A stretch of 64,000 nt of DNA from the human T2T-CHM13v2.0 reference genome, Homo sapiens: the NCBI RefSeq assembly GCF_009914755.1, contig NC_060935.1; one strand, given 5' to 3'. Positions 5,718-52,424 of this stretch are shown here, piece after piece (the first letter of the stretch is position 1; each line of letters starts with the position of its first letter). Below the pieces are notes generated by a model that did no database searches, was not told the DNA's origin, and was given only the letters and a program-made list of their open reading frames with translations. Made by a program: the position numbers and the translations under genes.

Positions 5718-5809
5718 TATATATATTAAAAGATTTTTAGCCATTCAGATTCTCTCACCCAGAAATTTCACCTTCAGTAGTCACTCCTAAAAAAAATTAT
5801 CCTGGCTGG

Positions 5810-26281: not shown

Positions 26282-29200
26282 GAGTTTTTTTTTTTTATGG
26301 ATATAGAGTTTTAATTTTGCTAGATGAAAAAGCTCTGGAGCTCCATTGCGAAACATGTAAATGTACTTAACACTATTGAACTGTATGCTTAAAAACAGTT
26401 ACGATGGTAAATTTTATCTTAGGTGCTTTTTACCACACACGTACGTAAAGTTATTTAGCTATTTCATGTCATACAATGTAGCCTCAATTTAGTAAAATTA
26501 AAATATCAGTTCTAAGTAATAGTCAAGACCTCAATTTTGTGTAAGGGTTTAGATTTCTTCCCCTGAGACTGGGGCCAGTTGCAGTTGAGAATCTGCCTTT
26601 TGCAAAGGAGGTCATGAGGGTGATATTGGCATTTATATAATCCTCTTCAACGTTGTGAACACTATTATAGGGGGTTGTACACCTTCTGCAATATTGGAAG
26701 TAATATTATTCTCTTCAATTTTGGAAATTACAAACCATATTATGGGGTGTTGTACACCCCTTGAGATATTGGGAGTAATATTATCTCGCACCTGGATATT
26801 AGGAAAAATATCACACAGGCAGGGTGTGTACACCCACTGCGACATTGGGCATACTATTATCCTCTCCCCCATTGGATATTAGGGACAATATCACAGGGAG
26901 GTGTACACTTCCTGTGACATTGTAAGTAATATCATCCTCTCCAACACTAGATATCACGAGCAATATCAAAAAAATGGTGTACACTTCCTGCGAGTAATAT
27001 CGTCTTCACTCCACCCCCCAGATATTAGGAACAATATCACAAAAAAGGTGTTCACCTCATGCGATATTGGGAATGATATCTTCTTCTCCCTTTCTATATA
27101 TTAGGAACAATATCACAGAAGGGGTGTTCAGCCGCTGCGATATTGGGAGTGATAGCATACTCTCCCATCCTAGATATTAGAAACAATATCACAGGGGGGT
27201 GTACCACTCGTGCGATATTGAAAGTAATAAGTTCCTCCCTCCCTGGATATTATGAGCCATATGACAGGGGGGTGTCCAGCCCCCGCCATATGGGGAGGAA
27301 TATCACCCTCCTCTTCCCCCCTGGATGTTATGAACCATATGACAGGGGGGTGTCCACCCCACGCAATATGGGGAGTAATATCACCCTCCTCTCCCCACCC
27401 TGGATATTACAAGCCATATGAAAGGGGGGTGTCCACACAGCACATTTACAATATTGGGAGTAATATCATATCCCCCTTTCAAAATTATGAACAATATCAC
27501 AGGAAGGTGTACAGCACCTCTTATATTGGGAGTAATATTATTCTCTCCCTTCCCCGGATATTAGGAAAAATATCACAACAAAGGTGTACACTTCCTGCAA
27601 TATTGGGAGTAATATCATCCTCTCCTCCCCTGGATATTAGGAACAATATCACAGAGAGGTGTACACCTCTTTCGATATTGGTATTAATATTGCCCACTCC
27701 CCCACTCGATATTAGAGAAAATATCACGGGGGGGTGTACACTCTCTGTGATAATGGGAATAATATCATCTTCTCCCTTACTGGATATTACAAACAATATC
27801 ACAGAAGGGGTGTACACCCTCTGCATTATTGAGAGTAATATCATCCAAGTAATTGGAAGTAATAATATCCAAATAATAACACCCTTGGATATTAGATACA
27901 ATATCACAGGGGAGATATACCTTAACTGTGATATTGGGAATACTATCATCCTCTTTCCTTTGGATATCAGGAACAATATCACTGGGAGGGTGTACACCCC
28001 ATGCGATACTGGAAGGAATATTATCCTCTTCCCTCATGGTTATTAGAAACAATATCACAGGGTGGGGGATGTACACCTTCTTTGACATTGAGAGTAATTT
28101 CATTTTCTCACCTCCTGGATATTACAAACAATATCACAAGGGGTTGTACATCCCCTGCAATATTGAAAGTATTATCATCCTCTGCCTCTTTGAATATTAA
28201 AGAAAAATCACAAGGGTGGTGTACACTTTCTGCCATATGGGAAGTAATATCACGCTCTTCCCCACCTGGATATTAGGAGAACAAAGGGGGTGTACACCAC
28301 CTTCGATTTTGGGAGTTATATCATCCTCTCCCCCTTTGAATATTAGGAAAAATATCACCGAGGGGGTGAGCACCCTCTGTGATATTGGGCATAATATAAT
28401 TCTCTTCCCCCCGGATATTAGGAACAATATCACAGAAGGGTGTACACCCTGTGATACTGGGAGTAATATCCTCTCCCCACCTGGATATTAGGAACAATAT
28501 CACAAGGGGGTGTACAGCTCCTGCGATATTGGGAGTAATATTGTCGTCTCTCTCCCTAAATATTACGAACAATATAACAATATCACAGGGAGGTTATACA
28601 TCCCCTTGTAATCTCATCCTCTCTCTTTCTGGATTTTAGGAACAACATCACAGAAGGGGTGCACACTCCCCTCGATATTAGGAGTAATATCATCCTCTCC
28701 CCCACTGGACATTATGAGCCATATGACAGGGGGGTGTCCACCCCACACCATATGGGGAGTAATATCACCCCCCTCTCCCCACCTGAATATTACAAGCCAT
28801 ATGACAGGGAGGTGTCCATCCCCCCCCCACCAAATGGGGAGTAATAGAATCCCCCTCCCCCCCGGATATTACGAGCCATGTGAGAGGGGAGTGTCCACAC
28901 AGTGTGTTTACAATATTGGGAGTAATATCATATCTACCTTTCGAAATTATGAACAATATCACAGGAAAGTGTAAAGCACCGGCGATGTTGGGAGTAATAC
29001 TATTCTCTCCCTTCCCCAGATATTAGGAAAAATATCACAACAAATGTGTACAACTCCTGCGATATTAGGAGTAATATCAACCTCTCCTCCTCTGGATATT
29101 AGGAACAATATCACAGAGGGGTATACACCTCTTTCGATATTGGTATTTATATCACCCACTCCCCAACTCGATATTAGAGAAAATATCACGGGGGGTGTAC

Positions 29201-30046
29201 ACCCCCTGCGATACTGGGATTAATAATATCCTCTCTCCCCTGGATGTTATTAACAATATCACAGAGGGGTGTACACCCTTGCGATATTGGGAGTAATATC
29301 ATCCTCTCCCTACCTGGATATTACGAACAATATCACAAGGGGGGTGTACACCCCCTGCGGTATTGGGAGTAATATTGTCGTCTCCCGCCCTAAATATAAG
29401 GAACAATATCACAAGGAGGATATACACCCTCAGCCATATTGGGAGTAATATCATTCTCTCCTTTCGTGAATCTTAGGAACAATGTCACAGGAGAAGTGTA
29501 CGCCCCCTGCTATATTGGGAGCAATATCATTCTCTCCCCCCTGGATACTAAAAACAATACAACAGTGGGGTGTACACCCCGTGCGATACTGGGAGTAATA
29601 TCATCTTCTCCCTTACTTGATATTAGAAACAATATCACAGAAGGGATGTACACCCTCTGCATTAATGGGAGTAATATACTTGCCCCCTTGGATATTAGAG
29701 ACAATATCACAGTGGGGATGTACCTTAACTGTGATGTTAAAAGTAATATCATCCTCCTTCCTTTGGATGTTAGGAACAATATCACTGGGAGGGTGTACAC
29801 CCCCTGCGATATTGGGAGTAATATCAGCCTCTCCCCTCCATGGATATTAGAAACAATACCACAGGAGTGGTGTACACTTCCTGCGAAATTAGGAGAAATA
29901 TCATCCTCTCCACCTTTAGATATTACGGAAAATATCACAGGGGAGGCCTACACCTGCTGTGATATTGGGAGTAATATCATCCTCTCCCCACCTGGATATT
30001 AGGAACAATATCACAGGTGGGTGGAAACCCACTGTGGTATTAGGAG

Positions 30047-30392
30047 TAATATTATTATTAATTATTAAGCATTTATTTTTATCATCTATATTAAAAATAT
30101 TAATGTTAATATTAATTATTAACATTATTTTACTGTTATCAATATTACTATTTATAATAGCTAATATTATTATGTTAACAAAATTTTGATGATCAATATT
30201 AGTCATAATATTAATAATATTAATTATTATCTATTATCATTGGTTTAGTTATTAATATTGGTAATTAATATTAATCACTATCATTGCTATAAATATTAAT
30301 GTTAATAATTAATATTAATCATTATCAGTGTTATAAATGTTAACATTAATTACTATTCATTATATCAATATTAATTATTATCAATATTATTT
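30047..30392. repeat. AT-rich core 1 at a satellite inversion centre
   Basis: Almost entirely A/T and built of ATTAAT/AATATT motifs. Satellite orientation flips across it. Confidence 0.9.
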
Positions 30393-33300
30393 CTGATATC
30401 CAGGGAGGAGAGGATGTTATTACTCCCAATGTCGCAGAAGGTGTACACCCCCCTGTGCTGTTGTTTCTAACAGTCAGGGGGTAGAGGATGACATTACTCC
30501 AAATATCGCAGTGGGTGTACAGCCCTTCAGTGATCTTGTTCCTCAGTATCCGGAGGGGAGAGGATGATATTACTCTCAATATCGCAGGAGGCTGTAGACG
30601 TCCCCTGTGCTATTTTCCCTAATATCCCAAGGTGGAGAGGATGACATTTCTCCCAATTTCCCATGGGGTGTACACCACTCCTGTGATATTGTTCCTAATA
30701 TCCATGGAGGGAAGAGGCTGATATTACTCTCAATATCGCAGGTGGTGTACACTTCCCAGTGATATTGTTTCAAATATCCAGGGACAGAGAGGATGATATT
30801 ACTCGCAATATATTGTTCCTAATATCCAGGGGGAAAGAGTATGATATTAGTCTCAATATCACAGAAAGCGTACACTCCCCAGTGATATTGTTCCTAATAT
30901 CCAGGGACAGAGAGGATGATATTACTCCCAATATAGCAGGGCATGTACACCCCTTCTGTGACATTGTTTTTAATACCTGGCGGGGGAGAGGGAGATATTA
31001 CTCCCAGTATCCCAGCAGGTATACACCCTTTTGTGATATTGTTCCTAATATCCCAGGAGGGAGACAAGGATACTAATGGCAACATCGCAGGAGGTGTACA
31101 CCACCTGTGATATTGTTCTGAGTATCCAGAGGGGGAGAAAATTATATTACTCCCAATATCGCAGTGGGTGTACATCCCCCTGTGATATTGTTTCTAATAT
31201 TCAGGGGGAAAAGGATGATACTACTCCCAGTATGGCAGGGGGTGTACACACCTCCTGTGATATTGTTCCTAATATGCAGAAGGGGGAGTATAATATTACT
31301 CTTAATATCACAGGGGGTGAACAGCTCTTCTGTGATATTGTTCTTAATATCCATGTTGGAAGAGGATGGTATTACTCCCAATATCACAAGAAGCGTACAG
31401 CTTCCTGAGATACAGTTCCTAATATCTAGGTGGGGAGAGGATGATATTACTCCCAATATCGCACGAGTTGTAAAACCCCATCATTACTTTTTCTACAATC
31501 TGGGAGGGAGAGGATGATATTACTCTCAATATTGAAGGAGGTGTACACCCCCCCTGTGACATTGTTCCCAATATCCAGGTTGGGAGACAATGATATTATG
31601 CCCAATATTGCAGGGGATGTACACCACCCTGCGATATTGTTCCTAATATCGAGAGGGGGAGAGGATGGCATTACTCCCAATATCGCAGTGGCTGTACATC
31701 CCCCTTCTGATATTGTTCTTAATATCCTAGGGGGAAAAGGATGATATTACTCCCAATATCGCAGGGGGTGCACACCCACCCAGTGATATTGTTCTTAATG
31801 TCCAGGAAGGAAAAGGATGATATTATTCCCAATATCAAAGGGTTTGTACACACCCCCTATGATATCATTCTTAATATTTAAGGGGGAGTGTATAACATTA
31901 TGCCTAATATCGCAGGGGGTGTACAACCCCCCCGTGATATTGTTCCTAATATCCAAAGGTAGAGAGGATGATATTATTCCCAATATCGCAGGGGTTGTAC
32001 ACCCCCATTGTGATACTGTTCTTAATATTTAGGGGGGAAGATAATTATATTACTGTTCGTATCACAGGGGTGGACAACAACACTGTGATATGGTTTTTAA
32101 TATTCCGTGGGGGAGAGCATGATATTAATTCCAATATCACAGGGGACACACCCTCTCTGATATTGTTCCTAATATCCAAGGGTAGAGAGAATGATATGAC
32201 TTACAATATGGCAGGGGGTGTACATCCCCTCCATGATATTGTTCCTAATATCCAGGGCGTGTACACGCCCCCTGAGATATTGTTCCTGATATCCAGGAAG
32301 GGAGAGGATGATATTACTCCCAATACCATAGGGAGCGTACACCCCCCGCCCGTGATATTGTTCTTAATATTTAGATAAGGAGAGAATAACATTACTCCCA
32401 ATATCGCTGAGGATGTACACCCTTTCTGGGATATTGTTCCTAATATCAAGTGGGGGATAGGATGATATTACTCCCAATATCGCAGAGGGTGCACACCCTT
32501 CTTGGAATATTGTTCCTAATATCAAGTGGAGGAGAAAATGGTATTACTCCCAAAAGCGCAGGGGGTGTACACACCCTTGTTTTTAATATCCAGGTTGGGA
32601 GAGGGTGTGATATTGCTCCTAATATCCAGAGGGGGAGTGGAGGATATTACTTCAAATATCGCAGGGCGTGTATACCCCCCTTGTGATATTGTTCCTAATA
32701 TCCCGGGGGTGAGACTATGATATTACTGGCAATATCGCAGGTGGTGTGCACCTCCCCGTGATATTGGTCCTAATGTCCAGCACAAGAGAAAATAATACTA
32801 CTCTCAATATGGCAGGGGATATACACTTCCCTTGCAATATTTTTAATAATATCCATGGGGGGAAGGATGATATTCCTCCCAATGTCACGGCGGGTGTACA
32901 ACCCCAGTGTGATACTGTTCTTAAAATCTAGGTGGGGAGAGGATGATATTACTCCCAGTATATCAGGGGGTGTAAACCTCCCTGTGATATTGTTCTCAAT
33001 ATCCATGGGGGGAGAGCATGATATTACTCCCAATATCGCAGGTGGTGTACACCCCTCCTGTTATATTGTTCTTAATATCCAGGTCAAAAGAGGATGCTAT
33101 CACTCTCGAAATCACAGGGAGTGTACACCCCGCCTGTGATATTGTTCCTAATATCCCGGGGAAGAGAGGATGATATTATTCTCAATAGCACAGGATGTGT
33201 ACGCCCACTTTGTGATATTGTTCCTAATATCCATTGGGGGGAGAGGGTGATATTACTCCCAATACCCTTTCATGATATTTTTCCTAATATCCAGGGGGGA

Positions 33301-36300
33301 AGAGCATGATATTACTCTCAATATCACAGGGAGTGTACACCCCTTCTGTGATATTGTTTCTAATTGTCAGGGGGTCAGAGTAGGATATTACTCCCAATAT
33401 CACAGGGGGTGTACACCCCCGCATGACATTGTTTCTAATATCCAGAGGGGGAGTGGATGTCATTAATATGCATAATCTTAGGAACAATACATCATCCCCT
33501 GTGATATTGCTGCTAATATCCAGGAAAGAAGAGGACGATATTACTTCCAATATTGCAGGGGGTGTACACCCCGCCTGTGATATAGTTTCTTATATCCATA
33601 AGAAAAGAGAATAATATTACTACCAATATCGAAGGGGGTGTACACTGCCCCTGTGATATTGTTTCTAATATCCAGGTTGGGAGAGGATTATTACTGTGAA
33701 TAACAGAGGGGGTAAACACCCTCCTTGTGATATTGTTTTTAATATCCAGGGGGTGAGAGGATGATATTACTCCCGATATCGCCGGTGGTGTACACCCCCC
33801 CTGTGATATTGTTCCGAATATCCAGGAGAAGAGAGGATATATTACTCCCAATACTGCAGGAAGTGTACACTCCGCTGTGACATTGTTTCTAATATCCATG
33901 GGGGGACAGCATGATATTACCCCCAATATCACAGTGGGTGTACAGCCTCCTTGTGATATTGCTCTTAGTTTTCAGGGGGTAGAGTATAATATTACTGCCA
34001 ATATAGCAGTGGGTGTACACCCTCCCTTTGATATTGCTCCTTATATTCACCGGAAAGAGGATGATATTGCTCCCAATTATCACAGTCTGTGTACACCCAC
34101 CCTGTGATATTGTTCCCTATATCCAGGGAGGAAGAGAATGATACTACACTCAATATTGCAGGTGGTGTACACCGCGCCTGAGATATTGTTTCCTGTCTCA
34201 ACGGAAGGAGAGGATGATGTTACCACCAGTATCGAAGGTGGTGTACACCCCGCTGTGATATTGTTCCTAATATCTAGGTTGGGAGAGAGTGATATCACTG
34301 CCAATATACCAGGAGGTGTACACCCCGTCTGTGACATTACTCCTAATATGCAGGGGAAGAGAGAATTATATTACTCCCAATAGCGCAAGAGGTGAACACA
34401 CCCCTGTGAAATATCCAGTGGGAGAGACAATGATATTACTGGCCATATTGCAGGAGGTATACACTCCCTCTGTGATATTGTTTTTAATATCCACGAGGTA
34501 TAGGATGATATTACTCCCAATATCGCAGTGAGTGTACACCAATCCTGTGGTATTGTTCTTAATATCCAGGGAGAGAGAGGATGATATTACCGTCAATATC
34601 GCAAGGGGTGGACACCCCTTCTTTGATATTCTTCCTCTTATCCAGGGAGGAGAGCATAATATTAATCCCAATATCGCTGGAAGTGTACACTCCCCCTTTG
34701 ATATTGTTCCCAATATCTCAGAGGGGTGGAGTCTATGATATTATCAGATGGTGTGTTCAACACCCCTGTAATATTGTTTCAGCAATGAAGAAAGATTTAA
34801 CTCCCAAAATGGGATGGGCTATACACCCCCCATGAGATATTGTTTTTAATATCCAGGGGGGGAAGGTGGATATTTCACTTCCCCTGTTGCAGCGGGTGTA
34901 TAAACCCCTGTGATATTGTTCCTAATGTCCAGGAGGGGTTAAGATAATATTACTCCCAATATCGCAAAGGGTGTACACCTCCTCTGTGATATTATTCTCA
35001 ATATCCATAGGGGTAGAAAATTATATTACTCCCAGTGATATTGTTTCTAATATCCAGGTTAAAAGAGGATGATATTACACACAATATCGCAGGGGGTGGG
35101 GTGTACATTCCTACTGTGTTATTATTTCTAATATTCAGGGGAAGAGGGAATAATATTACTCCCAATAGCGCAGGGGGTGTACACACCCTGTGATATTGTT
35201 CCTAATATCCAGGGAAGGAGACAATGATATTACTGGCCATATCGGAGGAGGTGCACACCCTTCTGTGATATTGTTCCTAATATTCAGTGGGGGAAAATAT
35301 AATATTAATCCCAATATCGCAGGGGGTGTACAGCCCCCCTATGATATAGTTCGTAACGCACGGGGAAAAGAGAATAATATTACTCCCAATATCGCTGGGG
35401 GTATACGCCCCCCCCCCGGTATATTACTCCTAATATGCAGCGAAGTAGATGCTGATGATACTCCCAATATCGCAGGAGTTATACACACCCCCTGTAATGT
35501 TGTTCCTAATATCCAGCGGGAAAGAGACTATTATTCCCAATATCGCAGTGGGTGTACATACCCCCTGTGATATTGTTCCTAATAACTAGTGGGGGAGAGC
35601 ATGATATTATTTCCAATGTCACGGTGGCTGTACCCACCCCCGGTGATATTGCTCCTAATTTTCAGTGGGTAGAGTAGGATATTATCCCCAATATAGCAGT
35701 GGGTGTACACCCAACCTGTGATAATTCTGCAAATATTCAGGGAAACACAAGATATTACTTCTAATAACGCAGGGAGTGTACACCCCTTTTGTGATATTGA
35801 TCTTAATATCCAAAGAAAGAGAAAAAAATACTTTCAATATTGCAGGTTGTGTACACCCACCCTGAGAAATTGTTCCTAATATCAAGGAAGGGAGAGGATA
35901 TTACTCCCCGTATAGCAGGGGGGTGGACAGGGGACTAATATCACCCCCCTCTCCCCTTTTGGATATTACGATCCACACCACAAGGGGGTGGACAACCCCC
36001 GCTATATGGGGAGTAATATCACCCCCCTCTCTTCCCCTAAATATTACAATCCCTGGTGGACACACAGAGTGTTTACTATATTGTGAGTAATATCATCTCC
36101 CCCTCTGGAAATTACGAACTATTTCACAGACGATGTACACCCTCTGCAGTATTGGGAGTAATATCATCCTCCTCCCCCCTGGATATTAAGGACAATATCA
36201 CAGGAGTGTTTATACTCCCTACGATACTGGGTGTCATATCATCTTCTCCCACATTGAAATTAGAAACAACATCTTTGGGGGCGTTTACACCTTCTGTATT

Positions 36301-40972: not shown

Positions 40973-41846
40973 TAGTGCAGGATCTGGCCAGCAGCCCACA
41001 ATGCAAGGGGGCTCTTTCTTTGTCCCCAGGCAGATCAGCAGGTCGAGAAATAATAGACACACACAAGATAGTGAAAACTGGGTCCAGGGGGGTCACCACT
41101 TTCTGGTCCCATGGTGCTGCCAATGCACTGGATATACCAGCATTTATTATTAAGTTTAGTGAGGGTGGGGGTAGGTTAGTGAGGGATTTAGGGTTGTTTG
41201 ATTATGAGGTGAGATGGTCACATGGGGATGAAGTAATTCTTTAACATAACATCTGTATGCAGAAGTACAGTATACAGAGATAAGAATTTACAGTATAGTG
41301 TGTGCATCAGTAATTTCCAACAGAGCCTTAAAACAGAAACACAGTCTTTCCATAACCTATGATTAGCAAGATATCAATCAACAGTAACAGTTGCAGCAAA
41401 AGCTGGTTACAAACAATCCGTAGAAACAGGATGTGAAGCTAGACAACCGGTTAGACCAGAAATTCTCAGAAGGGAGTATGCCTTAACCCTGAAGAGGCCT
41501 AGAAGAGCCGTGGCAAGATGAGGGCGTTTATAGCCCTATCTTATCCATATGAACAGGCACCCCTCATGCATCCATTTATAGGCTCTCCACAAGGGTCGCA
41601 TTCCATTCCCAGAGCTATGAACATCTGCTTTTCTGGGAAAGGAATCTTGGTGATGTGAAGCCTCCCTGACTGCACATCCGTTCATGGGCTCTCTTCAGGG
41701 GGAAGCACATCAAGCACTGTTGGCTCATTCTGGCAGTCCAACATGGCATTGTCTTTACACGACCCTGCATGCAACTTTGTATTTACAATAATCAGGAGCA
41801 TTTCATCTTTTATTCTGTAGCAATAGTTTCAGGGGGTCTCCCTACA
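40973..41846 (-). repeat. 3' LTR (MER11D-like)
   Basis: Direct repeat of 46989-47861. Adjacent to PPT AGAGAAAAGGGGGAGA (minus strand, 41847-41862). Minus-strand AATAAA at 41143-41148. Confidence 0.95.
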
Positions 41847-43873
41847 TCTCCCCCTTTTCTCTGATTTAAATGAACCATAGCAATCATAGCTTGGTGCTGA
41901 TTATGATTGGATTGAAGAATTTTTTTTCCAATTTTACACATGAACAATAAACCAATAGCACAAATTATACACAGAACAAAATTAATGATAGTGGATCCTT
42001 CCAAAGATTTTACCCATTGAATGGGGTTGAGATTAGATAACCCCTTAGAGATACCGTCTAAAACTTCAGCAATGGGTAAAGCAGTTAAGTGTGCTTGAGA
42101 GGCCTCAAATATCTGTTCTTCTAGCTTGCTTATGTCTAAACTTAAATTATCTTCACTTCCTTGTAAATGGAGTTTTACTGATTCCCAATTGTGAACAGAC
42201 TCATTATATTGAAACTGAGTTATACAAAAATCAGAAGTATTCCAATCACATTGCATTTGTAATCTATGTTCTAAAGTTATAATTCTATCTCCCATCCATA
42301 TAACAGTTTGTCTTAGATCATTAATTTGATTGGCCAATTTTTGATCAATACCTGACTGAGAATTCCACATCTGAGTGGAATTTTTTTGCCATTTATCCAT
42401 AAATGAACAGTTTGAATAGATTGATGTAATGCAACTCCAGCAGTAGCAGCAGTCGCAGTAACAGCAATCAAGCCCATTATTACTGCAATTAATGTAAAAA
42501 TAAATCATTTATTCCTTTTAAGAATTTTTTGTAGAATATTGTTAATAACACAGATAGAAGGGAAGATTCCCGAGGCCTATGTAAGGCTACAGGGAGCCAA
42601 ATAGCTTCTCTGGCTCTGAGTATTAAAATACTATGATATTGATTAAAGGATGAGTCAATACAAGCATACAAGTAACAATTAACACAGGTAATTATGTTGG
42701 TTTTTGAACTAATATGCATCTTTCCTACTAAAAACATATATGGTGGTTTAACACAACTTTTAAGTGGTATAGTTTTGTCAGTTTCCATATAGATAGTATA
42801 TATATTTCAGGATGGTACTCTTGTTTGTGAATGTGGGGTGGGGGAATAGGTTGTATGAGAGGTGGTGGGGGGACATTAGCAACGGGGAGGTATAAGTCCT
42901 CATAATCTTTACTGTCCCATCTTTGGATTGACCTTTTGATGATTGCCATAGTGATATTTTTGGCTGTTTGGAAATAGTAGTGTAAATTAATCTGTTGTCT
43001 TAGTTTTCAAGGTGACAAGGTGGATTTACTTATAACACTTTTTCCAGCCCAAACTCTCATACCAGTCATAGCTGTGGTTAATCTCCATAATTCTGAATGC
43101 TCACGTTGTAAGTGGGGAACAATGAGCCTTGGCTTTGGAGGGGCAACCACTACCTCTTTCCACTTAAAAGGACAAAAGGAGTTAAATCTAAGATATGAAA
43201 GGGAAGGGTTGTCACTACTTTTTTGATAAGTAATATCATAGAGAAAATGTTGACAATCTCTGTGACCTTGAGAGCAATCATTAGTAATATGACTTTTGGG
43301 AGCCCAATCAACAATGGTGTAGTGAGAAGAATTAAATAACACAGTTCCTTCTGAACTAACACAATCCTTCCATATTAATTTGTTAGCATTTGAAGACAAG
43401 TTGAGAAGACATGCAGATCCTAAAGGGTTATATCGGGATGTGTGAATACAATCAGTGATTCCTGTTTTGATCTGTCTTAGAGGTTTTACTGACAGCCCTG
43501 ATACCAAGTGTCCCAAAGGAGGCACAGAGTGACCAGATGGTAGTGTGACTGCCCAAGTTTGAATATCTAATGCGAGACATCCATTAGTGGGTCCCAGGCA
43601 CAAAGGTGGATACCTAAAACCTAAAGTGATATCCGAAGGGGTTCCTTCTTCTGAAGGTTGTGCAGGACAATGATCATCTATAGAACCAGGCATCCAAATA
43701 CTATCATTAACATAGACCTCTATAGGAGCATCCATCCATGTCACAGCTTGAATAAGAGGAGGAAAAGGAATATAGGCCCAATATGTATAGTTTTTAACAG
43801 TCTGTGGAGTGACAGAGTGTAGAAGGATCAGTGTCATCAGGAAGAGGCAGAGGTTGAGCCGGACCTGGATCAC
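41810..43873 (-). pseudogene. env: HERV-K env pseudogene (SU+TM) with stops and frameshifts
   Basis: SU motifs NYTYWAYIPFPPLIQAVTW and IPLKSCVKPPY. Furin site reads K-R-N-K-stop before fusion peptide [29 protein letters not shown] motif [22 protein letters not shown]...CDWNTSDFC. The frame ends inside the 3' LTR. Confidence 0.93.
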
Positions 43874-43880
43874 TGGATCA

Positions 43881-46125
43881 CAAGTTTAGTTGTATGTGAG
43901 GGGTAGACAACTCCTTATCCCCCTCTTTTTGTTTAAGTGATTGTAATTTTAGAGTTCTGTTACTTCTTTCTACATTAGCTTGGCCTTGTGGGTTATAAGG
44001 AATACCAGTAATATGTTTAATATGCTACTGATCAAGAAAATTTTTAAAAGCTTTACTGCAATAGGCTGGACCATTGTCTGTTTTGAGCTCACTGGGAATT
44101 CCCATAATCACAAAACATGAAAACATATGTTTTTTAACGTGAGAAGTGGCTTCTCCAGTTTGACAGGTAGCCCAGATGAAATTGGAAAAATGTGTCAATG
44201 GTGACATGCACATAAGCTAATTGCACAAAAGAAGGAACATGAGCAACATCCATTTGCCAAATAGCATTAGGAGAAAGGCCTTGGGGATTAACTCCAGGAG
44301 ATTGTGTGGCTAAGACAAGAATCTGACATTGAGAACAGCATTGTACAATTTGTTTAGCTTGTTTCCAACTGAGAGAATATTTATGTTTAAGACCTGAGGC
44401 GTTAGTATGAGTGAGTTGATGAAATTGTTCTGCATCTGTAATGGCTAGAGAAACTAGAGTATCAACTTTATGATTATCACTGGATAAAGGTCCAGGCAAA
44501 TTAGGATGAGATTGAATGTGAGTGATGAAAAAAGGGTGGTTTCAGTTTCTGACAGTCTTTTGTAACAAAGAGAACAAGGAAAACAGAATAGTGTCAGCAA
44601 TATTTTTGATGGTAACTGTTTCTATTGCCTTAGTGGCATGGACTACATAAGCTGAGTCAGAGACAATATTAAGAGGCTGATCAAAATCCTGTAATGCAGA
44701 GATAACAGCAAACAACTCGGCTTTTTGAGCAGAAGTGTATGGAGTAGAAATGACTTGATCTTTTGGTCCTGCATACCCTGCCTTTCCATTACTGGATCCA
44801 TCAGTAAAAATGGTAATGACTGCCTCTAGTGGTGATGAATGTGTAAGTTTTGGTAGAATCCAGGAAGTATTTCGTAGAAATTGAAAGAATTTTGACTTAG
44901 GCAAATGATTATCAATAGTGCCAATGAAGTCAGAGAGATTAGTCTGCCAGCACAAAGATGTAGAAAAGGCATTTTTAACTTCATTTTTTGACAAAGGGGC
45001 CACAATAATGTTTGGATCAAAGCCGGAAATTTTAGTGATATGTTGACGTCCTAACCCAATTAAAGTGGCCATTTGATCAAGATATATTGAAAGAGTTTTA
45101 GAGACTGAATTAGGAAGGAATACCCATTCAACTAGAGAATCATTTTGTATAATAAGTCCTGTAGGAGAGTAGATGGAAGGAAAAACTAAAAATTGTAAAG
45201 GCAAATTTGGGTCAATACGAGAGACTTGTGCCTCTCTCACTCATTATTCTGCAAAAGACAACTTTTGTTTTGTTGGTTCAGAGAGAGAGCAAGGACAGTT
45301 CTAAACCTGTATCTCCTGATAAAGTGGCAAATAGATGAGATAATGCATAAGTAGGGAAGGCTAGGGTTGGTCTGAGATAATTGATGTCATCTAGTAAATT
45401 TGAAAATCATTTAAGGTGTTTAAATTGTCAGTATGAAGTTGGACTTTTTGGTGTTTAATGGAGTGAGCTTCTAGCTGCATTCCTAAGTACAGAAAAGGAG
45501 TGGCTTGTTGAATTTTATCAGGAGCAATGTGGAGTCCTGCATTGGCAACAGCTAATTTTAAAGAGGTAAAACATTGAATTAATTCATCTTTAGTGGGAGC
45601 TGCAATCAGTATATCATCCATGTAATGAAGAATGTAATTATTTTTAAAAGTCTGTCAGATAGGTTGTAACACTACTGACAAACAACTGACAAATAGTAGG
45701 ACTGTTAATCATTCCTTGAGGTAAAACTTTCCATTGATATTTAGCTGCGGGATCTGAATTGTTAATGGAAGGTATAGTGAAAGCAAATTTTTCACAGTCT
45801 GACTTGTCTAAAGGAATATGAAAAAAGCAATCATTAAGGTCAATGATAATTAAAGGCCATTCCTTAGGAATCATGGAGGGGGAGGGCATACTGGGTTGTA
45901 ATGCCCCCATAGGTTTAATAACTGCATTAACAGCTCTTAAGTCTGTTACCATCCTCCATTTTCCTGACTTTTTTTGTACAACAAACACAGGCAAGTTCCA
46001 TGGAGACAAGGAGTGCTCAATAGTGTTTGCTTGTAGTACATTATTAACAATTTCAATTAAAGCCTCCAACTTGTGTTTGGAAAGCAGCCACTGCCCTACC
46101 TAAACAGGTAACTCACACACCCATT
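43881..46125 (-). pseudogene. pol: HERV-K pol pseudogene (RT, RNase H, C-terminally deleted integrase)
   Basis: RT motifs [40 protein letters not shown] and YMDD (about 45613-45624). RNase H motifs FTDGSS, SAQKAEL and SDSAY. Integrase motifs [22 protein letters not shown] and [10 protein letters not shown]. Several frameshifts and stops. Confidence 0.95.
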
Positions 46126-46827
46126 ATGCAGGGGCAGAGGAAAAGAGAGAAGAGAGTGAGGACACCGGGATGTGGACTGGGGGGAAGCAGGATTCCAAGC
46201 CTCTGAAGGAAGGGGTCCCAGAACATCAAAAGAAACAGTAGGCTTAGAAGAGTGGAGAGGTCCAAAAGGACAAGAGGAATGAGAAACAGGCCATTTAGCT
46301 GAATGCCACATGTCCTCCTCTGGCAGAGGGGGCAACGGCTTAGTAGAAGAAGAGTTAACATATACAGGTTCCAAGATAGGAGGTGGAGGGAGGAGATCAT
46401 CACCAGGTTCCTCCTCTTGGGGAGAAAACAAGGAAAGATTGAATTCCTCCTCATCATCAGAAGGAGGACTGGTAGGGGGGTCAGCTACCTGAGGTAAAGG
46501 GAGCGGCTCACCATCCGCATTAACTTGTGGCAGTTGAAGAGGATCACCAGACTGAAAAGGAAGTAAAGCAACATGAATAAGAGCCCAGTCGGTCCAAACA
46601 GAAATAGGAAGTAAAACACCATCTTTCATGAGTTGGTGACGCATGGCGCCAACTCTATCCCAGTCTAACAGGTCCATAGAACCTTTGCCAGGGAACCAAG
46701 GACAATATTTTTCAATAGTCTGAAATAAGAGAATAAGGTTATTGGAATCAGCCTTGATTCCACCCTGTTTAAGAAGAAGTTTAATAAAAGACAGATAAGC
46801 CTGGTGTTTAGATTGTCATTGTCCCAT
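46096..46827 (-). pseudogene. gag: HERV-K gag 5' part (matrix plus proline-rich region), truncated by deletion
   Basis: ATG at 46827 gives MGQ*QSKHQAYLSFIKLLLKQGGIKADSNNLILLFQTIEKYCPWFPGKGSMDLLDWDRVG, a betaretroviral matrix with a stop at codon 4, in frame with ORF 46096-46677. No capsid, nucleocapsid or protease follows. Confidence 0.9.
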
Positions 46828-46968
46828 AATAACCCTGGAATAATACCGGTCGACAAACCTGAAAAGAGGGGAGAGTCGGAAAAAGAGTACCCAGAGACCT
46901 TACCGTCAAGACTGAAGACTAGTCGTCATGAACCTGCACTCAGAGTGCACTGAGCTGAGAAACAAAGA

Positions 46969-46986
46969 AGGCCATGTTGGGCGCCA
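46969..46986 (-). promoter_or_regulatory. Primer-binding site, tRNA-Lys(CUU)-like
   Basis: Minus strand TGGCGCCCAACATGGCCT, 2 nt downstream of the 5' LTR. Resembles the Lys1,2 PBS TGGCGCCCAACGTGGGGC. Confidence 0.88.
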
Positions 46987-46988
46987 GA

Positions 46989-47861
46989 TATTGCGGGATC
47001 TGGCTAGCAGCCTGCAATGCAACAGGGCTCTTTCTTTGTCCCCAGGTGGATCAGCAGATCAAGAAACAATAGACACACACAAGATAGTGAAAGCTGGGTC
47101 CGGGGGGTCACCACCTCCTGGTCCCATGGTGCTGCCAATGCACTGGATGTAGCAGCATTCATTATTAAGTTTAGTGAGGGTGGGGGTAGGTTAGTGAGGG
47201 ATTTAGGGTTGTTTGATTATGAGGTGAGATGGTCACATGGGGATGAAGTAATTCTTTAACATAACATCTGTATGCAGAAGTACAGTATACAGAGATAAGA
47301 ATTTACAGTATAGTGTGTGCATCAGTAATTTCTAACAGAGCCTTAAAACAGAAACACAGTCTTTCCATAGCCTATGATTAGCAAGATATTAATCAACAGT
47401 AACAGTTGCAGCAAAAGCTGACTACAAACAATCCATAGAAACAGGATGTGAAGCTAGACAACCGGTTAGACAAGAAATTCTCAGAAGGGAGTATGCCTTA
47501 ACCCTGAAGAGGCCTAGAAGAGCCGTGGCAAGATGAGGGTGTTTATAGCCCTATTTTATCCATATGAACAGGCACCCCTCATGCATCCATTTATAGGCTC
47601 TCTGCAAGGGTTGCATTCCATTCCCAGAGCTATGAACATCTGCTTTTCTGGGAAAGGAAACTTGGTGATGTGAAACCTCCCTGACTGCACATCTGTTCAT
47701 GGGCTCTCTGCAGGGGGAAGCACATCACGTGCTGTTGGCTCATTCTGGCAGTCCAATCTGGCATTGTCTTTACACAATCCTGCATGCAACTTTGTATTTA
47801 CAATAATCAGGAGCATTTCATCTTTTATTCTGTAGCAATAGTTTCAGGGGGTCTCCCTACA
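46989..47861 (-). repeat. 5' LTR (MER11D-like)
   Basis: Adjacent to the PBS. About 42 differences from the 3' LTR by manual alignment (about 5%). Confidence 0.95.
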
Positions 47862-49528
47862 CCTGGCTATTATGATCCACATCGCAGTGGGGTGAGGCAC
47901 CCCCTGTGAGATGGGGAGTAATAGCATGATCCACGGTGGTTCCACTGCATGTTTATGATTTTGTGAGTAATATCAGCTCCCCCCTTGGAAATTACAAACT
48001 ATTTCACAGAGGGGTGTACACCCTCTGCAGTATTGGGAGTAATATCATCCTCTTTCTACCTGAATATTAAGGACAATATCACAGGAATGTTTATACTCCC
48101 TACAATATTGGGTGCCATATCATCCTCTCCCTTTTTGAAATTAGAAACAATATCACTGGGGGGCGTGTACACCTTCTGTGATATTGAAAGTAATATCATC
48201 CTCTTCTCTTCTGGATCTTGCGAACAATATCACTGGGGGGTGTACACTTTCGGCAATATTGGTAGTAATATTATCTTTTCCACCTTTGAATATTAAGGAC
48301 AATATCACAGGGGCGTGTACAACCCCTGCAATATTGGGAGGATTGTTATTCTATTCCCCCCTGCATATTAGGAAAAATATCAGAGTGAGTGTACACCTCC
48401 TGTGATATGGTGAGTAATATCCTCTTCTCCCCTTCTGGATATTTGGAACACTATCACACAGGGGTTTACACATTCTTCAATATCGGTGTAATGTCATCCT
48501 CTCCTTTTTTGAATGGTAAGAACAATATCACAGGGAGGGATGTACACCCCCTGCACTATTGGGAGTAATATCAGGCTCTCTCCGCCCTTGACGTTAGGAA
48601 CAATATCCCAGCGTTGGTCTCCACCTCCTACTATATTGAAAGTAATATCATCCTCTCCCTTCCTGGATATTAGAAACAAAATCACAGGGTAGGTGTACAC
48701 AGCCTGCGATATTGAAAATAATATAATCCTCTCCCCCTCTGGATATTAGGAACAATATCACAGAAGGGTTGTACACTCTCTGCCATATTGGGAGTAATAC
48801 CATTTTCTCCTTCCCTGAATATTAGGAGCAATATCCCCTGGTGGATGTACACCCACTGTTATATTGGGAGTAATGTCATACTCTACCCCCTGGATATTAG
48901 GAGCAATGTCAACTAATGGGTGTACACCCATGGCGATATTGGGGATAATATCATGCTCTCCCTCCCTGGATATTAGGAACAATATCACAGGTGGGTGTAC
49001 ACCTTCTGCAGTATAAAGAATAATGTTATCTTCTCTTCCTTTAGCTATTAAGAACAATATCACATGGGAAGTATACACCTCCTGCTCTATTGGGAGTAAT
49101 ATTCTCTCTTATTCTGGATAGCAGGAATAATATCACAGGCGGGGTGTATATCCCCTGTGATATTGAGAGTAATATCATCCTCTCCCAACGTGGATATTCG
49201 GAACAATATCACAGGGGGCATGTACTTCTCCGATATTGGTAGTAATATCATCCTCTCCCCCTGGATATAAGAAACAATATGACAGGCAGAATGGACACCC
49301 CCTGCGACATGGGGAGTAATATCCCTCCCTGGATATTGTGATCCACAGTGGACACACAGAGTGTTCATGATATTGTGAGTAATATCATCTCCCCCCTAGA
49401 AATTATGAACAATATTAAAGACGGGTGTACACCCTCTGCCATATAGGGTGTAATATCATCCTCTCTCCCCCTGGATATTAGAAACAACATCGCAGGTAGG
49501 AGTAGCATCCTCTGCAGTATTAGGAGTG

Positions 49529-49928
49529 ATAATATTATTAATTATTAATCATTAATTTCAATGTAATTATCCATGTTGTATTAATTAATATTAACTACTA
49601 ATATAATATTAATTATTAACAATTAATTTTATAGTTATACATTATTAATTATATGTAATTATGATTATATAATTATTAATAATTAAAATCTTTTATCAAT
49701 ATATTAATTACTAGTATTAATATTAACCATCAATTGTATATGTGTATTATTTATTAATTTTAAATTTAATTAATGTAAATTACTGATATTTTATTGATCA
49801 TAATACTATTAATTGTAAATAGTGATCATTAATATTAATAATTAATATTAGTTTGTCATTATGATTATTAATATCAATGATTGCTAGTAATTATTATATT
49901 TATTCATATTAATAATTAATATCCTTAT
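49529..49928. repeat. AT-rich core 3 at a satellite inversion centre
   Basis: As cores 1 and 2. Orientation flips across it and it has the same right-hand junction. Confidence 0.9.
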
Positions 49929-52424
49929 TCCTGATATCCACGTGGGGAGAAGATGATATTACTTCCAATTTCTCAGAAGGTGTACACCCCCCTATAATGT
50001 TATTCCTAATAGCCAGGGCGTAGGGGATGACATTACTCTAAATATCGCAGTGGGTGTACATCCCTTCTGTGATCTTGTTCCTAATATCCTGTTGGGGAGA
50101 GGATGATATTACTCCCAATATCGCAGGGGGCGTAGACCTTCTCTGAGATATTGCTCCTAATATCCGAAGGTGGAGAGGATGATATTTCTCTCAATTTCTC
50201 AGAGGGTGTACACCACCCCTGTGATATTGTTCCCAATATCCATGGGGTGAGAGGATGATATTAGTCTCAATATCGCAGGAGGTGTACACTTCCTAGTGAT
50301 ATTGTTCCTAATATCTAGGGACTGAGAGAATGATATTATTCCCAATATAGCAGTGGGCGTACACCCCTTCTGTGACATTGTTCCTAATAGCCAGCGGGGG
50401 AGAGGAAGATATTACTTTCAATATCGCAGGGCGTATACACCCAATTGTGATATTGTTCCTTATATCCCGGGAGGGAGACAATGATACGAGTGGCAATATC
50501 GCAGGCACTGTACACACCCACTGTGATATTGTTTTGATTATCCAGAGGGGAAGAAAATGATATTACTCCCAATATCACAGGGGGTGTACATCCTCCTGTG
50601 ATAATTGTTTCTTATATTCAGGGGGGAGAGGATAATATTACTCCCAATATTGCAGGGGTTGTACACACCTCCTGCAATATTTTCCCTAATATCCTGAAGG
50701 GAAGAGCATAATATGACTCTCAATATCGCAGGGGGTGTATACCTCCTTTGTAATATTGTTCTTAATATCCATGATGGCAGAGGACGATATTACTCCCAAT
50801 ATCACAATAAGTGTACAGCCTCCTGTGATACAGTTCCTAATATCTAGGTGGGGAGAGGATGATATGACTCCCAATATCGAAGAAGGTGTACACTACCGCC
50901 CCCCCCGCAATGTGACATTATTCCCAATATCCACGTTGGGAGATGATGATATTATGCCCAATATCGCAGGGGCTGTACACCCCTCCTGTGATATTATTCC
51001 TAATATCCTAGGGAAGAGAGGATGATATTACACCCAATATCGCAAGAGGGGTACATCCACCAAATGATATTCTTCTTAATGTCCAGGAAGGGGAAGGATG
51101 TTATTACTCTTGATATCGAAGTGGTTGTACTCCCCCCCCTGGGATATTGTTCCCAATATCCAGGGAAAGAGGGGATAACACCATGCCCAATATCGCAAGG
51201 GGCGTATATCTCCCCCGTGATATTGTTCCTAATATCCAAAGGTAGAGAGGATGGTATTACTCCCAATATCGCAGGGGGTGCACACCCCTCTTGTGATCCT
51301 GTTCATAATATTTAGGGGGCAAGAGAAGGATATTACTGTCCATATCACCGGGGTCACAACACTTCTGTGATAATTGTTTTTAATATTCAGTGGGGGAGAG
51401 GATGATAATAATTCCAACATAACAGGGGACACACCCTCTGTGATATTGTTCCTAATATCCGGGAGAAGAGAAATAATGTGACTCACAATATGGCATGGGG
51501 TGTACAGCACCTCCATAATATTGTTCCTAATATCCAGGAGGGATTAGAATGATATTATTCCCAATATCACAGGGAGTGTACACGACCCCTTTGATATTGT
51601 TCCTAATATCCAGGGAGGGAGAGGGTGATATTACTCCCAATATTGTCGGAGGTGTACAATACCCCTACTCCCATGTCATTGTTTTTAATCTTTAGGTGGG
51701 GAGAGGATGATATTACTCTCAATATCTCAGAGGGTGTACCCCTTCCTTCAGCCCATGTTTCAGCAGAGCCCCTTGAAGGGAGTCACAGTCTGTCTTAAGA
51801 AGGGGATTAGCCAGGAAGAGGGTTAATATGGCCCCACTGGAAATGGGTGGTCCACGTCTCACTTTGCCTGTTCCTTGTCTTTCTTCTCCTTCCACTCATG
51901 AGACCCCAGCAGTCTAGAAGAGAACGCTGCTCACTTCTGAGCACCCACTATAGTTGGGCTTATGGACAGATACAGGTTGAAGTTTATATCATTTCAGATA
52001 CCATTTTTTAGAAAGAAAGCTACAAATTTCTGAATACAAAGTAGACTTGGTGCCTTGAAAGAGATGGTTTCTGGCACAAGCCCCTGTGGTCAGGCATTTT
52101 CCATATGCCATCCCAGACCATAAGAATTGGACTCTAATTCTGACTCTAGCGCCTACTAGCTGATGGAAAAATAACCTCTCAGGGCCTCAGTTTTCTCCTC
52201 TATAAAATCTATCTTTAGGTAAAGAATTATCATTAGTAAGGCAAAGAGGCTCACACAGGGCTGCACTGAGGCTTGGATTTAGGTTTCCAATCTTAATAGA
52301 CAGACCATCCACCTGGTAACACAATCTTTCATCATCTCTGCATTCCAAGAGAGGACCACTGCTACAAAACAAACAAGAGTTTGAAGCCACCGAGACTATG
52401 ACCCTCAACCTTTCTTTGCATGAG

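What the first reader, a model, noticed from the sequence alone, without database searches (positions are those of the whole stretch)
26620..51741. Satellite organised as three tandem foldback-like macro-palindromes (arm, AT core, inverted arm)
Seen: orientation flips five times in a regular pattern, giving unit 1 (about 26620-35925), unit 2 (about 35930-40925) and unit 3 (about 40950/47862-51741). Each unit is a forward arm, an AT-rich core and a reverse arm. The units are homologous beyond monomer level. The first monomers right of each core carry the same variants in the same order (30393, 38917, 49929: ...AGAAGGTGTACACCCCC...GGATGACATTACTC...GTGATCTTGTTCCT), and 36060 onward aligns with 47950 onward. 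Inference: the amplified unit is a 4-9 kb palindrome, not the monomer. The layout recalls foldback elements and PATRR-like palindromes, and suggests fold-back or template-switch replication followed by tandem duplication. The satellite family itself is known; I cannot tell whether this architecture has been described. This is the best candidate for an undescribed system in the window.
Basis: partly seen in the sequence, partly recalled or inferred. Interest (0 to 1): 0.8.

Follow-up and report, generated by a model that had tools for sequence, protein, structure and literature searches.

The report
Old satellite array with repeated orientation flips
This is an old locus of a known primate satellite whose repeating block holds a backward run of 76-base units, an AT-rich spacer and a forward run; the same block sits at about 40 other places in this genome, and its two runs are not mirror copies.

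Summary
226 monomers of about 76 bp form six runs of alternating orientation (five flips). They make three units of '-' arm, AT-rich core (328, 414 and 435 bp) and '+' arm. A betaretrovirus-like provirus (40976-47861) lies between units 2 and 3. The units match beyond monomer level: 79-87% by BLAST against about 73% between random monomers, and three variant motifs recur at fixed offsets.

All 40 scored candidates in this genome matched the core with both junctions end to end, 37 of them outside the window on 11 chromosomes. In 20 fetched loci plus the window, 27 of 27 '-' to '+' junctions carry the core and 19 of 19 '+' to '-' junctions do not.

The "palindrome" reading is weaker. Arms show no mirror-register identity (0.724-0.734, background 0.72-0.73). 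Core self-complementarity comes mostly from short AT motifs. One '-' to '+' flip on chr6 has no core.

The best reading is one ancient rearrangement, most simply an inversion with one breakpoint in the monomer's own ~36-bp palindrome. The result was then copied as a higher-order unit and dispersed. SATR1-SATR2 composites (Xiao/DA duplicons) and an inverted-SATR1/AT-rich/forward-SATR1 unit in macaque are in print. This is a new member of a known kind.

The parts
26620..30055 (-). Unit 1 '-' arm: 45 monomers of about 76 bp. It holds an internal duplication of about 19 monomers (27235-27846 matches 28697-29304 at 85.7%).
30056..30383 (+). AT-rich core 1, 328 bp, GC 0.13. It was remodelled by an internal 44-bp tandem repeat, and its interior matches the other cores only weakly.
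30384..35922 (+). Unit 1 '+' arm: 75 monomers. The first 430 bp or so are collinear with the first monomers of units 2 and 3.
35923..36060 (.). '+' to '-' junction 1/2, at the monomer's GC-rich TGTACA palindrome. It is followed by GC-richer variant monomers in '-' orientation. There is no AT core here.
35980..38495 (-). Unit 2 '-' arm: 34 monomers. It consists of two copies of a segment of about 1.4 kb (36040-37093 and 37444-38495, 81% identical).
38496..38909 (+). AT-rich core 2, 414 bp, GC 0.17.
38910..40934 (+). Unit 2 '+' arm: 27 monomers.
40935..40975 (.). Left part of '+' to '-' junction 2/3. It is homologous to junction 1/2 (79% over 234 aligned columns once the provirus is left out).
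40976..47861 (-). Later insertion: a betaretrovirus-like (HERV-K-type) provirus inside a '-' monomer. Its LTRs are 40976-41846 and 46992-47861. It is not part of the satellite unit.
47862..49489 (-). Unit 3 '-' arm: variant junction monomers at 47862-47955, then 21 monomers. It is 87% identical to the outer half of the unit 2 '-' arm.
49490..49924 (+). AT-rich core 3, 435 bp, GC 0.15.
49925..51745 (+). Unit 3 '+' arm: 24 monomers. The array ends just after a TGTACA-type palindrome, and homology to other loci stops here.

Best explanation
The region is an old, diverged locus of the primate satellite that the literature calls SATR1/SATR2. These names were not checked by sequence here.

Its repeating block is a higher-order unit, not the 76-bp monomer. 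The unit reads: a few GC-richer variant monomers ('-'), a '-' array, an oriented AT-rich core of about 330-435 bp, a '+' array, and a '+' to '-' junction at the monomer's GC-rich palindrome. The window holds three tandem units. Their arms later grew or shrank by whole monomers and by duplications of about 19 monomers. A HERV-K-type provirus then landed in the outermost '-' monomers of unit 3.

Inferred origin: one ancient rearrangement inside a head-to-tail array, most simply an inversion of a block of monomers. One breakpoint lay in the ~36-bp palindrome around TGTACA. The other lay in the AATATT-rich part of the monomer, where the AT-rich core now sits. Unequal exchange then copied the two-flip block in tandem, and the block was dispersed to other chromosomes. 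More recently it also travelled as part of the Xiao/DA segmental duplications.

The anatomy, the unit homology, the genome-wide recurrence and the order of events are shown. The inversion and the means of dispersal are inferred. No function is indicated. The likely consequence is local instability at the monomer palindromes and the AT core.
For: Anatomy and five flips.

Unit-level homology including both junction types. Junctions 1/2 and 2/3 are 79% identical and share the variant monomers.

Recurrence across the genome. All 40 scored candidates of 546 match the 701-bp core-plus-junction query end to end; 37 lie outside the window on chr2, 3, 4, 5, 7, 9, 11, 12, 13, 14 and 22. A core-only query gave 47 candidates, 40 scored and 41 matches. 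In 20 fetched loci plus the window, 27 of 27 '-' to '+' junctions carry the core and 19 of 19 '+' to '-' junctions do not.

Whole units are collinear between chromosomes at 80-95% over 2.0-2.8 kb, for example window unit 2 against chr9:117.996 Mb at 81.3% over 2.3 kb.

The core is oriented. The profile reports one full-length orientation at each site, and reverse-complement scores between cores lie at shuffle level.

There is no mirror identity between arms. An inversion of a different stretch of the array predicts this; a fold-back copy does not.

All 8 close '+' to '-' junctions found in the fetched loci and the window have both ends at profile positions 59-76, in or next to the TGTACA palindrome. 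The monomer's 36-nt segment matches its own reverse complement at 30 of 36 positions.

Order of events by K2P distance: LTR pair 0.048; units 2 against 3, 0.10-0.14; unit 1 against units 2 and 3, 0.14-0.17.

Homology to other loci stops at the right array edge, and no SATR locus appeared among the scored matches to the left flank.

Literature. SES = SATR-HERVE-SATR (PMC2700803, passages and the Background section read). SATR1-SATR2 define the Xiao structure (PMC5088589, passages read). The macaque unit is SATR1v, inverted SATR1, an AT-rich repeat, then forward SATR1 (10.1101/2025.08.04.668424, passages read).
Against: The 20 comparison loci were chosen because they hold a core, so the 27/27 and 19/19 counts are not an unbiased census.

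The one locus picked for another reason (chr6:104.66 Mb) flips '-' to '+' at the TGTACA palindrome with no core. Flips can therefore arise more than once.

Core 1 is barely alignable in its interior to the other cores.

Absence of mirror identity does not exclude a fold-back event that happened long before the unit was copied.

The cores do fold better than dinucleotide shuffles (z -3.2, -4.2, -3.3). They also keep some long-range self-complementarity: 1 of 200 and 5 of 200 block shuffles reach the observed score for cores 2 and 3.

The trees of arms and cores are noisy, and the three window units do not form one clean clade. Simple local triplication is therefore not proven.

No other primate genome could be searched, so in-situ growth and insertion of the array cannot be told apart. 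The names SATR1, SATR2 and SATR1v rest on literature and locus coincidence, not on a comparison with Dfam consensus sequences.
Confidence: 0.6

Rival explanations
1. Fold-back or template-switch origin. A hairpin-primed or fork-switching event copied an array back on itself around the AT-rich centre, making a true palindrome. The palindrome was then duplicated in tandem.
For: The arms are inverted around a spacer at every core-bearing site. The cores fold better than dinucleotide shuffles. Their self versus reverse-complement alignments span nearly the whole core with z 5.2-5.9 against dinucleotide shuffles. Every monomer carries a hairpin-prone palindrome.
Against: Mirror-register identity is at background in units 1-3. 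It is also at background in the eight monomers nearest each core: fractions of equal-length diagonals at least as high are 0.076, 0.278 and 0.076. The same holds in a 14-unit consensus. Direct collinearity between units survives at 79-95%, so any mirror copy must have decayed to background before the unit was amplified. The arms are out of phase at the core: the '-' arm stops near profile position 32 and the '+' arm starts at positions 1-4. Core self-complementarity falls to z 1.1-3.0 against 20-nt block shuffles.
Confidence: 0.2
2. The module is a relic of a mobile foldback-like element, or another self-propagating unit such as one that re-inserts from extrachromosomal DNA. Its long inverted arms are built of tandem subrepeats around a loop. 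It seeded dispersed loci without carrying flanking DNA.
For: About 40-50 copies lie on 11 chromosomes. Homology to other loci stops at the right edge of the window's array, and no SATR locus appeared among the scored matches to the left flank. The older loci share the unit but, as far as seen, not their flanks. The five array ends of the '-' left / '+' right type that were examined fall at profile positions 50-70, within the monomer palindrome.
Against: No target-site duplication is visible at the window's array ends. Other array ends fall at other phases: positions 1, 23 and 29. The arms of one unit are no more alike than random monomers, unlike the terminal repeats of an active foldback element. 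No coding partner is known. The many young copies are explained by the Xiao/DA segmental duplications (PMC2700803, PMC5088589). Satellites can also disperse by duplicative transposition alone.
Confidence: 0.08
3. The alternation of orientation is an assembly artefact.
For: None from the calls. It is listed only because satellites and inverted repeats are hard to assemble.
Against: Substitution divergence (K2P) between the units is 0.10-0.17, so reads place uniquely. The same module recurs at 37 other sites. A provirus with LTRs 95.4% identical over aligned columns sits cleanly inside one arm.
Confidence: 0.02

Closest known systems
SATR1-SATR2 composite satellite of the Xiao/DA core duplicons, the 'SES' element SATR-HERVE-SATR (Ji and Zhao 2008, recalled and not held; PMC2700803; PMC5088589)
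   Same: The core-bearing module occurs at chr4 ~8.9-9.8 Mb, chr7 ~7 and ~99 Mb, chr11 ~68 and ~71.5 Mb, chr12 ~8.4 Mb and chr3 ~75.7 Mb. The chr4, chr7, chr11 and chr12 places match the DA/Xiao loci listed in PMC2700803 (4p-9, 7p/q-6.6/97.5, 11q-67, 11q-71, 12p-8); chr3 ~75.7 Mb has no counterpart in the passage I saw. One copy there (chr4:9.50 Mb) has a truncated core followed about 220 bp later by gammaretrovirus-type gag, protease and RT. That fits SATR-HERVE-SATR.
   Different: The window's locus is much older: its cores are 69-79% identical to the consensus of the young copies. Its arms are longer (21-75 monomers against 12 and 10). Its provirus is a different, HERV-K-type element at a junction unique in the genome. 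The papers I read do not spell out the inverted-arm layout.
Macaque SATR1-SATR1v 'core unit' and SATR1-SATR2 mixed arrays (bioRxiv 10.1101/2025.08.04.668424)
   Same: The order of parts is the same: a GC-rich variant array, inverted SATR1, an AT-rich repeat, forward SATR1. That paper also reports SATR1 arrays of variable length interspersed with SATR2 pieces of a uniform ~377 bp, close to the 328-435 bp cores here, and calls the arrays palindromic.
Foldback (FB) transposons of Drosophila (recalled)
   Same: Long inverted arms built of tandem subrepeats around a central spacer. Dispersed copies.
   Different: The arms here are not mutually similar beyond family level. No target-site duplication or conserved termini were found, and there is no evidence of mobility.
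PATRRs, palindromic AT-rich repeats such as those at 11q23 and 22q11 (recalled)
   Same: An AT-rich stretch of a few hundred bp with some self-complementarity, lying in a family linked to rearrangement breakpoints.
   Different: PATRRs are near-perfect palindromes. These cores are 69-77% self-complementary over aligned columns, are oriented, and owe most of the signal to short motifs.
Strand-switching satellite arrays in T2T assemblies, such as alpha, beta and HSat arrays (recalled; not checked in papers here)
   Same: Blocks of monomers of alternating orientation within one array.
   Different: Here the two flips belong to a conserved higher-order unit that is itself copied in tandem and dispersed.

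Membership tests
SATR1/SATR2 composite satellite (RepeatMasker/Dfam names) | Sequence match of the arms to the SATR1 consensus and of the core to the SATR2 consensus | not testable with these tools
No Dfam or Repbase library was available.
SATR1/SATR2 composite satellite (RepeatMasker/Dfam names) | Relatives of the module lie at the published Xiao/DA (SES) loci, next to an ERV1-type provirus | tested here: met
   Searches give the locus list. Searches show that at chr4:9.50 Mb a truncated core is followed about 220 bp later by Gag_p30, RVP and RVT_1. The published locus list is in PMC2700803.
SATR1/SATR2 composite satellite (RepeatMasker/Dfam names) | Variable SATR1 arrays interspersed with a short element of uniform size (~377 bp in macaque) | tested here: met
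   Cores measure 328-452 bp between arms of 9-75 monomers at 27 junctions.
Macro-palindrome or fold-back duplication | Arms are mirror copies: position x left of the centre matches position x right of it above background | tested here: not met
   Register k=0 gives 0.734, 0.729 and 0.724 against background 0.73, 0.72 and 0.728. A 14-unit consensus gives 0.742 against 0.745. The first eight monomers are not significant.
PATRR-like AT-rich palindrome | Near-perfect self-complementarity of the AT-rich stretch about a centre | tested here: not met
   Self versus reverse-complement identity is 69-77%. z is 1.1-3.0 against 20-nt block shuffles. Folding energy is only -38 to -47 kcal/mol for 361-466 nt.
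Foldback-type transposon | Inverted arms made of tandem subrepeats around a spacer | tested here: met
Foldback-type transposon | Target-site duplication and conserved outer termini | tested here: not met
   No direct repeat is seen at 26620 and 51745. Array ends fall at differing monomer phases across loci.
Foldback-type transposon | Filled and empty orthologous sites showing insertion | not testable with these tools
   No other primate genome was searchable.
Higher-order-repeat satellite | A multi-monomer unit whose copies are more alike than its monomers are to one another | tested here: met
   Units match at 79-95% against 73% for monomers.

The most novel reading that the evidence does not exclude
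The '-' arm / AT core / '+' arm block is a self-propagating unit. It would move as a foldback-like non-autonomous element, or as a hairpin-ended or circular intermediate opened at the monomer's TGTACA palindrome. On this reading it seeded some 40-50 loci without flanking DNA, and its palindromes and AT core are the fragile sites that made the Xiao/DA core duplicons hotspots of duplicative transposition and of the 8p23.1 rearrangements.
Probability: 0.1. Interest if true: 0.7.

Novelty: new member of a known kind. Interest (0 to 1): 0.3.

Why it matters
The SATR1-SATR2 repeats mark the edges of the Xiao/DA core duplicons. A 746-kb duplicative transposition at 8p23.1 breaks inside SATR2 (PMC5088589), and that paper leaves open why these cores are unstable.

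This work gives a precise anatomy to test. Every monomer carries a ~36-bp palindrome, and all 8 close '+' to '-' flips examined and the one coreless flip sit at it. An oriented, easily melted AT core lies between inverted arrays. The anatomy also shows that long cruciforms between the arms are unlikely, because the arms are only about 73% alike. For annotation, the chr11p12 array is one of the oldest and most diverged copies and may help root the family.

Tried and rejected
1. Mirror-symmetry tests came out negative each time. I tested all registers, the first eight monomers, and a consensus of 14 young units.

2. I tested whether the window's provirus is the HERV-E of the published SATR-HERVE-SATR element. 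It is not. Its domains are betaretroviral (Gag_p10, HERV-K_env_2), and the LTR/satellite junction matched nowhere else among the 40 scored of 812 candidates.

3. The core as a true palindrome: it is significant against dinucleotide shuffles but mostly explained by short motifs.

4. The core as decayed monomers: the monomer profile finds nothing inside the cores except at the left edges of cores 2 and 3.

5. I looked by eye for target-site duplications at the array ends and saw none.

6. I looked for shared flanks. The right flank matches no other locus beyond the array end. The left-flank searches were swamped by interspersed repeats, so they are only weak evidence.

7. An Rfam scan of 24000-54000 gave 0 matches.

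8. I looked for an olfactory-receptor gene next to a young copy. None of 9 ORFs from chr4:9.49 Mb matched any Pfam family, so the Xiao identity of that copy rests on its location only.

9. A wider census of coreless arrays was not possible.

Ji and Zhao 2008 is not held.

11. Literature searches for 'SATR1', 'SATR2', 'OR7E + satellite + tandem + inverted' and 'satellite / foldback / T2T / palindromic / strand' were run. From listings, and from passages of eight papers, only the macaque preprint describes this internal layout.

Full report
**1. What is in the sequence**

Tandem Repeats Finder reports arrays of period 75-76 on both sides of three AT-rich stretches. GC falls to 0.23, 0.22 and 0.18 at 30.0-30.5, 38.5-39.0 and 49.5-50.0 kb, against 0.39-0.47 in the arrays.

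A monomer profile built from the window finds 444 raw hits. After overlaps are resolved, 226 monomers remain in six runs:
- '-' 26669-30055 (45 monomers)
- '+' 30384-35922 (75)
- '-' 35980-38495 (34)
- '+' 38910-40934 (27)
- '-' 47956-49489 (21)
- '+' 49925-51745 (24)

Random orientation would give about 112 runs. The three '-' to '+' switches enclose AT-rich cores of 328, 414 and 435 bp. The two '+' to '-' switches have no such core. One is a 57-bp gap. The other is a 7021-bp gap that holds a provirus.

**2. Units are homologous beyond the monomer**

Any two monomers are on average 72-73.5% identical, whichever blocks they come from. Against that background, self-BLAST gives long direct matches:
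- 36070-37610 with 47950-49496, 87.1%
- 38785-40616 with 49791-51643, 81.5%
- 30368-30812 with 49906-50349, 85.5%
- 30813-32256 with 39061-40512, 78.7%

Monomer-by-monomer diagonals say the same: 0.888 for the '-' arms of units 2 and 3, 0.821 for their '+' arms, and 0.786 and 0.785 for the '+' arm of unit 1 against those of units 2 and 3.

The two '+' to '-' junctions are also homologous. They are 79% identical over 234 columns once the provirus is left out. They share unusual GC-richer '-' monomers. The copied unit therefore includes both kinds of flip.

Arms changed length afterwards. Segments of about 19 monomers are duplicated within the '-' arms of units 1 and 2.

**3. The provirus is a later, unrelated insertion**

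40976-47861 has two 870-bp LTRs that are 95.3% identical (K2P 0.048). ORF fragments on the minus strand carry Gag_p10, RVT_1, RNase_H, Integrase_Zn, HERV-K_env_2 and GP41. This is a betaretrovirus-like (HERV-K-type) element.

Its LTR family is common in the genome, but the LTR/satellite junction matched nowhere else among the 40 scored of 812 candidates. It sits inside a '-' monomer of unit 3.

The K2P distances give the order of events. Unit 1 split from units 2 and 3 first (0.14-0.17), then unit 2 from unit 3 (0.10-0.14), then the provirus arrived (0.048).

**4. The module is a property of the family**

A 701-bp query of core 3 with both junctions was searched against the window's own genome. 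All 40 scored candidates (of 546) matched end to end at 71-76% identity. Three are the window's own cores. The other 37 lie on chr2, 3, 4, 5, 7, 9, 11, 12, 13, 14 and 22, and several are in tandem. A core-only query taken from a chr4 copy gave 47 candidates, 40 scored and 41 matches.

I fetched 10 kb around 20 of these sites and mapped monomers and cores. Every core has a '-' array on its left and a '+' array on its right, whichever way the core itself points. Including the window, 27 of 27 '-' to '+' junctions hold a core and 19 of 19 '+' to '-' junctions hold none.

Many copies share a fixed layout of 12 monomers, a core of about 420 bp and 10 monomers, repeated every 2.2 kb or so.

Whole units are collinear between chromosomes at 80-95% over 2.0-2.8 kb. 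Window unit 2 matches chr9:117.996 Mb at 81.3% over 2.3 kb.

The caveat is that these loci were picked for having a core. The listing (150 of 480 matches shown) includes arrays in which every listed match has one orientation, for example chr6:58.1 Mb over 6 kb and chr5:136.32 Mb over 7 kb. The only locus I chose for another reason, chr6:104.66 Mb, flips '-' to '+' with no AT core, right at the monomer's TGTACA palindrome.

**5. It is not a palindrome in the strict sense**

If a unit had arisen as a fold-back copy, monomer i left of the core should match monomer i right of it. It does not. Mirror-register identity is 0.734, 0.729 and 0.724, against backgrounds of 0.73, 0.72 and 0.728.

The eight monomers nearest each core are not significantly elevated. 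The fractions of equal-length diagonals scoring at least as high are 0.076, 0.278 and 0.076.

A majority consensus of 14 younger units, which removes private mutations, gives 0.742 on the mirror diagonal against 0.745 overall.

The arms are also out of phase at the core. The '-' arm stops near profile position 32, and the '+' arm starts at positions 1-4.

The cores fold better than dinucleotide shuffles (z -3.2, -4.2, -3.3; 0 of 100 shuffles fold as well). They also align to their own reverse complement over nearly their whole length (z 5.2-5.9). When 20-nt blocks are shuffled instead, z falls to 1.1-3.0, and 36, 9, 1 and 5 of 200 shuffles reach the observed score. Most of the signal therefore comes from short palindromic AT motifs.

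The cores are oriented. Forward scores between cores 2 and 3, and between either of them and the young consensus, are z 8-12 above block shuffles. Reverse-complement scores sit at shuffle level.

Core 1 is the exception. Its interior is only weakly alignable (z 2.8, 2.2 and 1.1), probably because an internal 44-bp repeat expanded there. Its edges and the adjacent monomers are clearly homologous.

**6. The monomer itself explains where flips fall**

The consensus monomer contains a segment of about 36 nt, AATATC..GGGGGTGTACACCCCC..GATATT. It matches its own reverse complement at 30 of 36 positions. 122 of the 226 monomers still carry TGTACA.

All 8 close '+' to '-' junctions found in the window and the fetched loci have both ends at profile positions 59-76, in or beside that palindrome. 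The coreless chr6 flip is there too. Several of these junctions share the same variant of the last '+' monomer, so they are probably copies of one ancestral junction.

**7. Best explanation**

One rearrangement in a head-to-tail array created a '+' to '-' junction at the GC-rich palindrome and a '-' to '+' junction where the AT-rich core now lies. A simple inversion of a block of monomers gives exactly these two junctions. It also predicts arms that are not mirror copies, which is what is seen.

The two-flip block then became a higher-order unit. It was amplified in tandem, three units here, and dispersed. The younger copies travelled with the Xiao/DA segmental duplications.

Shown: the anatomy, the unit homology, the recurrence and the order of events. 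Inferred: the inversion and the way the older copies dispersed.

Homology to other loci ends at the window's right array edge. No SATR locus appeared among the scored matches to the left flank, but that search was dominated by interspersed repeats.

**8. Comparison with what is known**

- Li, Ji and Zhao (PMC2700803; passages and the Background section read) describe a conserved flanking element 'SES', SATR-HERVE-SATR, of the Xiao and DA duplicons.
- Mohajeri et al. (PMC5088589; passages read) call SATR1-SATR2 the canonical repeat structure of Xiao. They place a 746-kb duplication breakpoint inside SATR2.
- The chr4 ~9 Mb, chr7 ~7 and ~99 Mb, chr11 ~68 and ~71.5 Mb and chr12 ~8.4 Mb hits match their locus list. 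At chr4:9.50 Mb a truncated core is followed about 220 bp later by gammaretrovirus-type gag, protease and RT.
It also describes SATR1 arrays interspersed with SATR2 pieces of about 377 bp, and speaks of palindromic configurations. That is the same order of parts as here.
- PMC1794570 (one passage read) lists SATR2 annotations of 2.3-2.6 kb on chr13, close to the size of the fixed 12-core-10 unit.

I could not compare sequences with Dfam, so the names are inferred. My four literature searches turned up no paper that spells out the human layout.

**9. Verdict**

The satellite composite, and in macaque its internal order, are already in print. The chr11p12 array is an old, diverged member of a known kind. 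Interest is modest. It lies in the link between the monomer palindrome or AT core and the instability of the Xiao/DA duplicons.

Noticed in passing
window 40976-47861: HERV-K-type provirus on the minus strand with an internal deletion: the Gag_p10 ORF runs straight into an RT ORF. The LTRs are 95.3% identical. The 8-bp string CCTGGCTA lies on both sides (40967-40974 and 47862-47869). On the left one extra base separates it from the LTR, so the exact target-site duplication is unclear.
   Followed up: partly
L041 (chr6:104660500-104662999), positions 1214-1349: A '-' to '+' flip with no AT core. The switch lies at the TGTACA palindrome, with about 19 nt of the expected monomer missing.
   Followed up: partly
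L040 (chr2:82523000-82532999), positions 4949-5780: Two partial cores lie head to head (one '+', one '-') inside a single '-' to '+' junction.
   Followed up: no
L031 (chr14:45945000-45954999), cores at 4422-4839 and 7749-8169: Two neighbouring units have cores pointing in opposite directions. This could be a larger inverted duplication, or a flip of a core between its inverted arms.
   Followed up: no
L027 7447-7816, L033 2683-3042, L034 1364-1725, L037 7505-7864: Four young copies have a core cut off at profile position 341-351. In L027 gammaretrovirus-type gag, protease and RT follow about 220 bp later. This fits the published SATR-HERVE-SATR element, with the provirus sitting in the core.
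   Followed up: partly
window 26620 and 51745; L040 3029 and 8337; L023 6049: All five array ends of the '-' left / '+' right type fall at profile positions 50-70, inside the monomer palindrome. Joined together, the window's two ends would re-form one complete palindrome. The sample is small, and other array ends fall at positions 1, 23 and 29.
   Followed up: partly
window 35960-36060 and 47862-47955; L026 3932-4003 and 6088-6159; L036 1721-1929: GC-richer variant monomers (of the type ..GATCCACATCGCAGGGGGTGAGGCACCCCC..GGGGAGTAATAGCA..) flank the ordinary arrays and follow each '+' to '-' junction. They may be the 'SATR1v' of the literature.
   Followed up: partly
window 26043-26282 and 26300-26438: The left flank holds a young high-copy interspersed repeat (89-96% identical to 39 other scored matches) and an older one (77-82%).
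   Followed up: no
window 27231-28046 (+), 29400-30002 (+) and others: Stop-free frames of 130-271 codons run through the satellite. They are most likely a by-product of the periodic sequence. They were not searched against protein libraries.
   Followed up: no
window 24500-25499: Strong positive GC skew (0.32) and GC of about 0.5 lie just left of the array, overlapping the RefSeq enhancer annotated at 24918-25247.
   Followed up: no
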